From positions 1-27,655 of IMG/VR virus record IMGVR_UViG_2537562192_000021: a DNA stretch of 27,655 nucleotides; one strand, given 5' to 3'. Position numbers: made by a program. Positions 24,201 to 27,655 of this stretch are shown here, piece by piece. Position 1 is the first letter of the stretch, and each line of letters starts with the position of its first letter. Origin of the DNA: a virus. Taxonomy: Duplodnaviria > Heunggongvirae > Uroviricota > Caudoviricetes.

Positions 24201-27200
24201 TAATTGCAGTGAGCTGGAATGGGAGTGTAACCGGCCATCCTTTGTTGTATCCGGTGATGACGGGAAAATCACCATATCAGAAAATGGAAAAGTAACACTG
24301 CCATCGCACCAGCACAGTGAGACGCTCATTGAATTTGCCATTGATTACCTGAAGAACAATAAAAAACAGGGGCTGATGCAGCGCATTGGTCGTTGCATGG
24401 GGTATCTGCAGGTAGCCGCTGAGATTGAAGCGCTGGCCAGTGGTGCGGACAAGGATTCAGTTGTGCGGGAGGCACTTCTTCGTGATTTTGATAATCCGCC
24501 TTTTAAAAAAGTGCCGGCTTACTGGCTTCATCCCGGACTGACTTATCTGAAAGTGCGTATTTAGTGGGCCTGGGACAGCGGCTGAATATTTAATATATCC
24601 ATGAACACAAAAATCAAATACGGCCTGTCGGCTGCCGTTCTGGCGCTGATTGCCGCAGGGGCTTCTGCGCCTGAAATCCTCGACCAGTTTCTGGATGAAA
24701 AAGAAGGCAACCACACCACGGCATACCGTGATGGCGCGGGTATCTGGACCATCTGCCGTGGAGCCACCCGGGTGGATGGTAAGCCTGTGATTCCTGGCAT
24801 GAAGCTGTCGAAGGAAAAATGCGACCGGGTTAACGCTATCGAACGGGATAAGGCGCTGGCATGGGTGGAGAAAAACATCAAAGTGCCACTGACTGAACCC
24901 CAGAAAGCGGGGATCGCGTCATTCTGTCCTTACAACATTGGCCCGGGTAAGTGTTTCCCGTCGACGTTTTATAAACGAATTAATGCAGGCGATCGCAGGG
25001 GAGCGTGTGAAGCGATTCGCTGGTGGATTAAGGACGGTGGGCGTGATTGCCGCACACGTTCAAATAACTGCTACGGACAGGTTATTCGTCGTGACCAGGA
25101 AAGCGCATTAGCTTGTTGGGGGATAGATCAGTGAGAGGAGTAACCGCGATTATTTACGCTCTGGTTATCTGCATCATCGTCTGTCTGTTATGGGCTGTTA
25201 ATCATTACCGCGATAACGCCATCACCTACAAAGCGCAGCGCGATAAAAAAGCCAGAGAGCTGGAGCTGGCAAACGCAACTATTACTGATATGCAGGTGCG
25301 CCAGCGCGATGTTGCTGCGCTCGATGCAAAATACTCGAGGGAATTAGCCGATGCGAGAGCTGAAAATGAAACTCTGCGTGCTGATGTTGCCGCTGGTCGT
25401 AAGCGCCTGCGGATCAACGCCACCTGCCACGGTACCGTGCGTGAAGCCACCAGCACCTCCGGCGTGGATAATGCAACCGGCCCCCGACTGGCAGACACCG
25501 TTACACGGGATTATTTCACCCTCAGAGAGCGGCTGATGACGATGCAGAAGCAACTGGAAGGGGCGCAGGAATATATCCGTACTCAGTGCATTAAGTAGTC
25601 TTTTTATTATCCGGAGGATATATGAAGAAATTACTGGTAACCGTAAAGCCTTTTCAGGGAACAATTCCGTTCCGTGTTTTGCAGCCTGGTCGTGTTCTTG
25701 TTGAAGGTACGTTCAGTGGTAAATGTACGCAATCATACTCCCGGGTCTTTCGGGTGGATGCCTCGAATGAAGAGCTAACCGTGGAGTGTGCTGTGAATGC
25801 CGCTAAATGCCGCAATGGTATCGGCTGCATTACAGCCAGTGTGTTGAGCGACCTTATTATCCATGGCGCGGTATTGTCGCCGTATTCCCGTATTAACAGA
25901 GACCGCAGCCCGACAGGGAGACTCCTCTGCGCGAGTGTGCGGGGATAATCAAAAACGATACACACCGGGGTTTACCGCGTTAACGGAGCGCGGCGTTGTC
26001 CCCTCATGGTCGCTGGTCCGGTGCGATGGTGGAAGAAACCGGACTACATTAAAAATGATAACCATTATCATTTTTTGCGGGTCCTCCTGGTGGGGTGGGT
26101 ATGAACACGGGGCGGGCGGCGCGGAAAAAGGCGCATTTTTTGATTTTTATGGCACCATCACCACCAGTGTAAATCATTGATATATACCATAATAAAAATT
26201 TTTAGTGTCGAAGTTGATTGTTTTTGTTCATCACTGGCGTGTATTTACATAATTTTCAGGGGAAGTTATGGATCGTGAATTAAAAAATCTGCATCTGAAT
26301 ATTTCCCAACTGGCTGCATTATCCGGTGCTCATCGACAGACTGTCGCGGCTCGGGTAAAAACATAAGCCCAGCCGGTGGTCATGAGAGTAATCTCAAACT
26401 GTACCGACTGACAGATATCCTTGCCGAGCTGATGAAAGCTCCTCTGCCTGTAGATAACGAGGAAATGGATCCTCATGCGCGTAAAGCATGGTACCAGTCA
26501 GAACGTGACCGACTGAAATTTGAGCAGGAAACCGGTCTGCTCGTGTCAGTCAGTGATGTCAGGCGGTCGTTTTCTGTCGTGGTGAAAGCGATAGTTCAGG
26601 TACTGGAAACCTGGCCTGACCGGCTGGAGAGGGACAGGGGGTGGACCGCATCACAACTGAATGAAGTACAGATTGTGTTGATGAGATCCGCGACACACTG
26701 GAAAAGGCAGTCATTGACTGTTGTGATGAGGCCGATATGTGAATCAGGTGAACGAGAGCCATAGCCGCGCATCCGATATCTGGCGCGAAGTGGCCTCGCT
26801 GTTTCGCCCACCTGGCCGGTTACCAGTAGCGGAAGCCATCAGGCGTTATATGCGGGTACCACGGGGAGCCAATACTTCCGGTCCGTGGGAGTCATCGCTG
26901 ACGCCCTATATGATTGACCCCATTAATACATTATCAGCCCGTGAATATGACGCGGTGGTGTTTGTGGGACCTGCGCGAACCGGGAAAACCGAAGGGCTGA
27001 TTGATGGCTGGATTGTGTACGGCATCATCTGTGATCCGGCGGATATGCTGGTGGTGCAGATGACCGAGACAAAGGCGCGTGAGCATTCCAGAACGCGTCT
27101 TTCCAGGACGTTTCGCCACAGTCCGGAGGTCAGTAAGCGCCTCAGCCTTCCCATAATGACAACAACGTCCACGACAAAATGTTTCTTGACGGCTCATTCC

Positions 27201-27655
27201 TGAAAATTGGCTGGCCGTCGATCACTGTATTTTCCTCTTCGGATTACCGTCGTGTGGCGCTGACGGATTATGACCGTTTTCCTGAGAACGTCGACGGTGA
27301 AGGGGATGCCTTCACCCTGGCCTCAAAGCGTACCACCACCTTTATGTCCTCGGGGATGACCCTGGTCGAAAGTTCGCCCGGGCGGGATATCACTGACACC
27401 AAATGGCGCTGTGGCGGCGCACATGAGGCACCGCCAACAACGGGGATCCTGTCACTGTATAACCGGGGAGACCGCCGCCGGTGGTACTGGCCGTGTCCGC
27501 ACTGCGGGGAATATTTTCAGCCGGTGATGGATAACATGACCGGTTACCGGAATAACCCTGATTTTGTGGCTGCCGGGCAGGCGGCCCGCCTGATGTGTCC
27601 GCACTGCCGCGGCCTGATTGCTCCGGAACAGAAGCGTGAACTGAATAACCAGGGG

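What the first reader, a model, noticed from the sequence alone, without database searches (positions are those of the whole stretch)
26268..27655. Single-base frameshifts in both terminase genes: defective prophage or homopolymer assembly errors
The small-subunit frame breaks after codon 32 at an A5 run (26357-26361); one extra A restores …VAARVKNISPAGGHESNLKLYRL…. The large-subunit frame breaks near CCTTCCC (27152-27158); one extra C restores …RLSPSHNDNNVHDKMFLDGSFLKIGW…. If real, the prophage cannot package and the toxin genes are locked in the chromosome. Together with the G9-split Rha gene and the 13800 ORF, the pattern also fits systematic homopolymer error.
Basis: seen in the sequence. 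Interest (0 to 1): 0.5.

Follow-up and report, generated by a model that had tools for sequence, protein, structure and literature searches.

The report
Contig-end sequencing errors in terminase genes
The broken packaging (terminase) genes of this Shiga-toxin prophage are almost certainly base-calling or consensus errors in the last 1.8 kb of a draft-assembly contig, not a disabled virus, so the finding is ordinary.

Summary
The small terminase gene (DUF1441) carries two one-base deletions (A6->A5 at 26357-61; GG->G at 26676/7). TerL carries one (CCC->CC at 27146) plus a private R139H change at 27153. A T6->T5 deletion lies in the intergenic leader (26221-25). A +A at 25814 breaks a 74-aa ORF.

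The window is the terminal 27.6 kb of WGS contig AEZR02000053.1 (GCA_000194435.2), so the window end is the contig end. All five private one-base indels fall in the last 1,842 nt. None occurs in the preceding 25.8 kb of window or in 7.9 kb of upstream chromosome on the same contig.

A near-identical late region in an independent assembly (L021) has all three genes intact. Undoing the five indels gives proteins identical to it, apart from R139H. None of 5,426 complete E. coli genomes shares any of the four deletions.

Other draft assemblies break their contigs at window-equivalent 25.6-26.0 kb, which marks a repeat boundary. The best reading is low-quality consensus at a contig end or repeat edge. 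It is neither a defective prophage nor window-wide homopolymer error: the G9 Rha split is shared by an independent assembly, and the '13800 ORF' is not broken.

The parts
25622..25948 (+). Small conserved late-region ORF: 74 aa in relatives, read as 108 aa here because of an extra A at 25814
   Evidence: Removing the A gives a product identical to the 74-aa protein of L021. The insertion is private against 5 relatives.
25814..25814 (+). Private one-base insertion (A1->A2). It is the first of the five terminal indels.
26221..26225 (.). T5 run in the non-coding leader upstream of the small-subunit gene; T6 in all relatives
   Evidence: No complete E. coli genome shares it.
26268..26742 (+). Terminase small-subunit gene (DUF1441 family, 158 aa when intact), broken twice
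   Evidence: Pfam PF07278 matches both fragments. The repaired translation is 158/158 identical to L021. Homologues are annotated as terminase small subunit in Stx phages.
26357..26361 (+). A5 run (A6 in all relatives): first frameshift, at codon 30-31; stop codon at 26364-26366
26676..26677 (+). GTG-TTG where relatives have GTGGTTG (G2->G1): second frameshift of the small-subunit gene, at intact codon 137
   Evidence: None of the 741 matching places in 526 records shares it.
26739..27655 (+). Terminase large-subunit gene (lambda gpA type). GTG start overlaps the small-subunit stop. Only codons 1-306 of 707 are present because the contig ends.
   Evidence: PF05876 GpA_ATPase matches both fragments. 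The intact homologue in L021 is 707 aa with ATPase and nuclease domains.
27146..27147 (+). CC where the nearest relatives have CCC (others TCC): TerL frameshift at codon 136; stop codon at 27201-27203
   Evidence: No complete genome shares it.
27153..27153 (+). Private G->A substitution (Arg139->His), 8 nt after the deletion
   Evidence: G in all six aligned relatives. It is the only private substitution in the last 1.84 kb.
27655..27655 (.). Physical end of contig AEZR02000053.1 (position 343,299 of 343,299)

Best explanation
The broken terminase genes are consensus errors in the low-quality terminal ~1.8 kb of a draft whole-genome-shotgun contig. The contig runs from unique chromosome and unique prophage early genes into the packaging module, which is a repeat shared among lambdoid prophages, and it stops inside terL. 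From about the point where the repeat begins, the consensus is poorly supported. Five single-base run-length miscalls (four deletions, one insertion) and one base miscall were written into the record. The underlying prophage most likely has intact small and large terminase genes identical or nearly identical to those of L021.

Shown here: the position at the contig end, the privacy of the lesions, their clustering, their spectrum, and the clean repair to intact proteins.

Inferred: low read depth or mixed repeat copies as the cause, and the sequencing chemistry. My guess is a pyrosequencing-era assembly, based only on the age implied by the accession; I did not verify this.
For: 1. The window is contig positions 315,645-343,299 of the 343,299-nt contig AEZR02000053.1 (GCA_000194435.2). 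Loci L006, L019 and L022 from that contig are 100% identical to the window, and the window end is the contig end.
2. Against L021, an independent draft carrying the same lysis protein, the window has no difference over 22393-24500 and ten substitutions in 24501-24846. From 24847 to the end there are only five one-base indels and one substitution.
3. In a census against 22 related loci, 26,294 nt are covered by at least 2 relatives. Private events are 54 substitutions, one 11-bp intergenic deletion and five one-base indels. All five indels lie in 25814-27145. Fisher's exact test, counting all six private indels (five in the tail, one elsewhere) against the substitutions (one in the tail, 53 elsewhere), gives p = 6e-6. 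The chance that five uniformly placed events all fall in the last 1,842 nt is 1.3e-6.
4. The 7,934 nt of chromosome upstream on the same contig have no private indel. All eight core genes there have normal length.
5. One lesion is intergenic, and the small-subunit gene is hit twice.
6. Undoing the five indels gives a small subunit 158/158 identical to L021, TerL 305/306 identical, and an identical 74-aa ORF.
7. No complete E. coli genome (5,426 searched) shares any of the four deletions. The best matches are exactly 'all gaps present' at 99.0%, 98.5% and 97.2%. The 154-aa truncated TerL product is on record from this contig only.
8. Short-read drafts carrying the same lysis module end their contigs at window-equivalent 25597-25975 (L023-L025). 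The packaging region occurs in up to 5 copies per complete genome. This places a repeat boundary where the private indels begin.
Against: - No reads, quality values or coverage were available, so the error itself is inferred and not observed.
- The sequencing platform and the strain could not be established.
- Run-length changes are also what polymerase slippage produces in vivo, so the type of lesion alone does not discriminate.
- The final 510 nt of the contig carry no detectable error.
- The record is already a second version (AEZR02) and the errors, if they are errors, survived the revision.
Confidence: 0.86

Rival explanations
1. Truly defective Stx2b prophage. The strain carries real slippage mutations that inactivate both terminase subunits, so the prophage cannot package its own DNA and the stx2b genes are immobilised unless another prophage complements them.
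For: The frameshifts are in the deposited sequence and would abolish both proteins. All are run-length changes of the kind made by replication slippage. Defective lambdoid prophages are common in STEC (established knowledge). The same prophage does carry one probably real frameshift, the G9 run in Rha.
Against: - There are five indels to one substitution in 1.84 kb. Elsewhere in the window there are 53 private substitutions and no private one-base indel.
- One of the indels is in non-coding DNA, and the small-subunit gene is hit twice.
- The lesions are private among 5,426 complete genomes and the large gene catalogue.
- A near-identical relative is intact.
- The cluster abuts a contig end.
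- From established knowledge, base substitutions outnumber indels roughly ten to one in E. coli mutation-accumulation data. Such a spectrum arising naturally in one 1.8-kb patch is therefore very unlikely.
Confidence: 0.08
2. Assembly-wide systematic homopolymer error. Frameshifts are scattered over the whole window and genome because of the sequencing chemistry.
For: Three of the five indels are in runs of at least 3 bases (T6, A6, C3). A G9 run splits Rha.
Against: - There is no private one-base indel in 25.8 kb of window or in 7.9 kb of adjacent chromosome, although these contain many A/T runs of 6-8 bases.
- All eight core genes upstream are full length.
- The G9 allele is shared with the independent assembly L017.
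- Nothing is broken near 13800.
Confidence: 0.04
3. Programmed frameshifting or transcriptional slippage: the genes are expressed through recoding at the A run and the C run.
For: The first break is at an A run, which is a formally slippery sequence.
Against: All relatives encode both proteins in a single uninterrupted frame with A6 and CCC/TCC. Three separate recoding events would be needed in two genes. A5 is shorter than known transcriptional slippage tracts (established knowledge). The same 1.8 kb also carries an intergenic indel.
Confidence: 0.01

Closest known systems
Consensus errors at contig ends and repeat boundaries in draft shotgun assemblies
   Same: Single-base run-length indels, private to one assembly. 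They are concentrated in the last ~2 kb of a contig that terminates inside a multi-copy prophage module. They affect coding and non-coding DNA alike and are trivially repairable to the sequence of close relatives.
   Different: I could not inspect reads, quality values or coverage, so the classification rests on comparative evidence. Two of the five events are in runs of only 1-2 bases.
Lambda-type terminase of Stx phages: gpA-family large subunit with a DUF1441 small subunit, as in VT1-Sakai H0024/H0025, CP-1639, 1720a-02 and the Stx2a phages LC5678xx
   Same: 95-97.5% nucleotide identity over the region. The gene order is the same, with the small-subunit stop overlapping the large-subunit start. 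The Pfam families are the same.
   Different: The copy in the window is interrupted by three one-base deletions and is truncated at codon 306 by the contig end.
Defective lambdoid prophages of STEC (for example the prophage pool of O157 Sakai)
   Same: A prophage carrying virulence genes with disrupted morphogenesis or packaging genes would look like this at the annotation level.
   Different: Real defective prophages typically show IS insertions, larger deletions or lesions shared within a lineage (established knowledge). Here the lesions are private, indel-only and confined to a contig end.

Membership tests
gpA-type terminase large subunit (Pfam GpA_ATPase + GpA_nuclease) | N-terminal gpA ATPase domain | tested here: met
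   PF05876 matches both fragments: profile positions 2-93 (E = 1.4e-28) and 108-240 (E = 1.8e-42).
gpA-type terminase large subunit (Pfam GpA_ATPase + GpA_nuclease) | C-terminal gpA endonuclease domain | not testable with these tools
   It lies beyond the contig end at 27655. It is present in the intact homologue L021 (PF20454, E = 6e-84).
DUF1441 terminase small subunit of Stx/lambdoid phages | PF07278 match and position immediately upstream of, and overlapping, terL | tested here: met
   Fragments match profile positions 1-22 and 58-134. The stop at 26740-42 overlaps the terL GTG at 26739. Homologues are annotated as small subunit. A DNA-binding or packaging role was not tested here.
Sequencing/assembly artefact | Lesions private to one assembly | tested here: met
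   None of 5,426 complete genomes shares them. The truncated product is on record from this contig only.
Sequencing/assembly artefact | Lesions localised to a low-confidence part of the assembly (contig end or repeat edge) while the rest is clean | tested here: met
   Five of five one-base indels lie in the last 1,842 nt of the contig, and none in the preceding 33.7 kb.
Sequencing/assembly artefact | Error-like spectrum: indels far outnumber substitutions, and coding and non-coding DNA are both hit | tested here: met
   5 indels to 1 substitution, against 0 to 53 elsewhere in the window. One indel is intergenic.
Sequencing/assembly artefact | Low depth, low quality or disagreement among raw reads at the sites | not testable with these tools
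   No reads or quality values are available.
Defective (pseudogenised) prophage | Inactivating lesions reproducible in independent sequences of the lineage | tested here: not met
   The near-identical late region in L021 is intact. No other record shares any of the lesions.
Defective (pseudogenised) prophage | Failure to produce phage particles on induction | not testable with these tools
   This is an experimental question. No paper on this assembly was found.
Programmed ribosomal or transcriptional frameshift | Split-frame arrangement conserved in homologues | tested here: not met
   All homologues are single-frame.

The most novel reading that the evidence does not exclude
The five indels are real. 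In that case a very recent, localised burst of slippage mutations has knocked out both terminase subunits and a neighbouring small ORF of an Stx2b prophage, fixing the toxin genes in the chromosome of this strain.
Probability: 0.08. Interest if true: 0.3.

Novelty: not a real feature. Interest (0 to 1): 0.05.

Why it matters
The main lesson is one of caution. Taken at face value, the record says this Stx2b prophage cannot package DNA. That would change how one judges the mobility of its toxin genes, and it would inflate counts of 'defective' Stx prophages in comparative studies built on draft assemblies.

The lesions sit in the last 1.8 kb of a contig and vanish in a near-identical relative. 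The sensible default is therefore an intact packaging module. For the genome scan, frameshifts within about 2 kb of a window end should be checked against the contig end before they are interpreted.

Tried and rejected
- **Strain, project and platform of AEZR02 / GCA_000194435.** Four literature searches found nothing useful. The LEE-negative STEC paper (PMC3491183) lists other accessions (AEXD, AFDQ-AFEA) and not this one. Its 454/Celera method therefore cannot be transferred to this assembly.\n- **Source contig via the integrase.** The TTG-start product was not on record. The ATG-start product is too widespread, so the source contig was not among the 10 places shown.\n- **Source contig via the 124-aa Rha fragment.** Not on record. 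The SNF2 protein then worked.\n- **24004 (-C) and the 19484/19535 pair.** I first treated these as candidate private indels. They are shared with closer relatives (L021, L023-L025) or lie in naturally variable non-coding DNA, so I dropped them.\n- **Indels around 20,800-21,200, 10,540-10,630 and 6,480-6,525.** These are divergence in non-coding or mosaic segments relative to particular relatives. They are not private.\n- **Chimeric consensus of two diverged repeat copies.** Only site 27146 coincides with a C/T polymorphism among relatives. The private A at 27153 is seen in none of them. This is neither supported nor excluded.\n- **A mutator background.** Rejected, because 33.7 kb of adjacent sequence has no private one-base indel.

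Full report
**What is in the sequence**

The region 26268-27655 holds the start of the packaging module of an Stx2b-type prophage. ORF 26268-26366 (32 codons) and ORF 26432-26764 both match Pfam DUF1441 (PF07278), at profile positions 1-22 and 58-134. ORFs 26739-27203 and 27179-27655 both match GpA_ATPase (PF05876), at profile positions 2-93 and 108-240. Each pair is therefore one gene broken by a frame change.

Homologous phages (1720a-02, CP-1639, ASU11, VT1-Sakai, several Stx2a phages) are 95-97.5% identical. They annotate these genes as the terminase small and large subunits.

The string CCTTCCC is at 27146-27152, six bases to the left of the stated coordinates.

Alignment with the closest complete genomes (99.7% identity, 1456 versus 1460 nt) shows four one-base deletions and one substitution in 26200-27655:
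- T6->T5 in the non-coding leader (26221-25).
- A6->A5 (26357-61).
- GTGG->GTG at 26676/7. This is a second frameshift in the small-subunit gene, at codon 137.
- CCC->CC at 27146, in TerL codon 136.
- G->A at 27153 (Arg139->His). All six aligned relatives have G.

Further left, an extra A at 25814 extends a conserved 74-aa ORF to 108 aa.

**Where the window comes from**

Looking up the truncated 154-aa TerL product returned a single contig: NCBI GCA_000194435.2, AEZR02000053.1, 343,299 nt. The locus ends at position 343,299. Three loci fetched from that contig are 100% identical to the window. The window is therefore contig positions 315,645-343,299, and the window end is the contig end, inside terL.

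I could not find the strain, the project or the sequencing platform in the literature library. The 2012 LEE-negative STEC paper lists other accessions.

**The lesions are private**

An independent draft assembly (L021; GCA_016773895.1, contig JAETYD010000072.1) encodes the identical lysis protein. It has an intact 74-aa ORF, an intact 158-aa DUF1441 protein and an intact 707-aa TerL with both gpA domains.

Across window 22393-27655 it differs from the window as follows:
- No difference in 22393-24500.
- Ten substitutions in 24501-24846. Nine of these form a tight patch in the lysozyme gene, typical of a recombination tract.
- From 24847 to the end, only the five one-base indels and the one substitution listed above.

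Undoing the five indels gives a small subunit 158/158 identical to L021, a TerL N-terminus 305/306 identical, and an identical 74-aa product.

Short queries centred on the deletions found no complete E. coli genome (5,426 searched) that shares any of them. The best matches are exactly the values expected with all gaps present:
- 191/193 = 99.0%, among 303 matching places.
- 66/67 = 98.5%, among 741 places.
- 70/72 = 97.2%, among 34 places.

**The lesions are clustered at the contig end**

I compared the window with 22 related loci and called an event private when every covering relative (at least two) disagreed with the window. 26,294 nt could be scored. Private events were 54 substitutions, five one-base indels and one further gap at 13924.

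The gap at 13924 proved to be an 11-bp deletion in non-coding DNA at a mosaic junction. All five one-base indels lie between 25814 and 27145, within the last 1,842 nt, where there is only one private substitution.

Elsewhere the score is 53 substitutions and no one-base indel. Fisher's exact test, counting all six private indels (five in the tail, one elsewhere) against the substitutions (one in the tail, 53 elsewhere), gives p = 6e-6. The chance that five uniformly placed events all fall in the last 1,842 nt is 1.3e-6.

The 7,934 nt of chromosome just upstream of the window on the same contig carry rseC, lepA, lepB, rnc, era, recO, pdxJ and acpS, by their Pfam families and order. This stretch has no private indel and one private substitution. 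All eight genes have normal length. The assembly is therefore clean for 33.7 kb and then accumulates five indels in its final 1.84 kb.

**Why the end of this contig would be poor**

Three short-read drafts that carry the same lysis module end their contigs at window-equivalent 25597, 25613 and 25975. Two of them begin at 22393. That is the signature of repeats flanking a short unique segment.

The packaging region occurs in up to five copies per complete genome (also up to 3-4 copies). The contig therefore runs out of unique sequence at about 25.6-26.0 kb, which is where the private indels begin, and it terminates 1.7-2 kb further on.

I infer that the terminal consensus rests on few or ambiguous reads. 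This step is inference, because I had no reads, depths or quality values.

**Rivals**

*A truly defective prophage.* This would need five slippage events and one substitution in 1.84 kb, including one in non-coding DNA and two in the same already-dead gene. Meanwhile 33.7 kb next door would have acquired none, and a near-identical relative would have stayed intact. In E. coli mutation-accumulation data, substitutions outnumber indels by about ten to one (established knowledge). A mutator background would not be local. I give this reading 0.08.

- The G9 run that splits Rha (3934-3942) is present in the independent assembly L017, with 1 mismatch and 0 gaps over 1,300 nt. L018 and L005 have G7 and an intact gene.
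- Nothing is frameshifted near 13800. There are 0 indels against L002 over 12748-13813.

*Programmed frameshifting.* This is excluded, because every homologue reads both genes in a single frame.

**Comparison with what is known, and verdict**

The genes are ordinary members of the lambda gpA/DUF1441 terminase pair of Stx phages. The interruption pattern matches the well-known class of consensus errors at contig ends and repeat edges in draft assemblies. It does not match the usual anatomy of defective STEC prophages, which show IS insertions, larger deletions or lineage-shared lesions (established knowledge).

The biological interpretation is not supported. The artefact interpretation is supported in a modified form: local to the contig end, not systematic. 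Novelty: not a real feature. Interest: 0.05.

The decisive check is trivial: read depth at the six sites, or one amplicon sequenced across 25.75-27.25 kb.

Noticed in passing
window 3506-4302 (- strand); G run at 3934-3942: The Rha-family regulator gene is split by a G9 run (C9 on the coding strand). An independent assembly (L017) has the same G9 in otherwise identical sequence (1 mismatch over 1,300 nt). L018 and L005 have G7 and an intact 244-259-aa gene. This looks like a real poly-G length polymorphism and possibly an on/off switch for an antirepressor-like gene.
   Followed up: partly
window 5894-6687 and 9708-10498: A ~795-bp direct repeat at 93% identity. It corresponds to two AntA/BRO-type antirepressor paralogues flanking the family-A DNA polymerase gene. 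Relatives carry one or two copies in different arrangements.
   Followed up: no
window 13920-13926: An 11-bp deletion relative to L007-type relatives, in non-coding DNA just past a hairpin-like GC-rich inverted repeat and at a mosaic junction. This is the only private multi-base indel in the window.
   Followed up: partly
window 24789-24846: Nine substitutions within 58 nt of the lysozyme gene relative to four otherwise near-identical assemblies (L021, L023-L025). This is a short recombination tract and not scattered mutation.
   Followed up: no
window 1-20000: The stx2b prophage sits next to yfhL. It combines a non-lambda early region (tyrosine integrase, SNF2 helicase, family-A DNA polymerase, DUF2800/PDDEXK, VapE-type primase-helicase) with a lambdoid Q-stx-lysis-terminase late region. 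The same integrase and early module are very widespread, being listed in 2,463 blocks of the gene catalogue.
   Followed up: no
L019 13462-21395 versus L017: The chromosome flanking the prophage differs from assembly GCA_016773455.1 (L017) by only 2 mismatches in 7.9 kb. The two prophages nevertheless differ in gene content: L017 has the NUMOD4/HNH gene and DUF7446 and only one AntA copy. This suggests recent module exchange in near-clonal hosts.
   Followed up: no
L001 29700-32294: In the closest complete genome (2012EL-2448), the tail tape-measure gene of the homologous Stx2b prophage is annotated as a pseudogene with an internal stop. This is a possible real defect in a finished genome.
   Followed up: no
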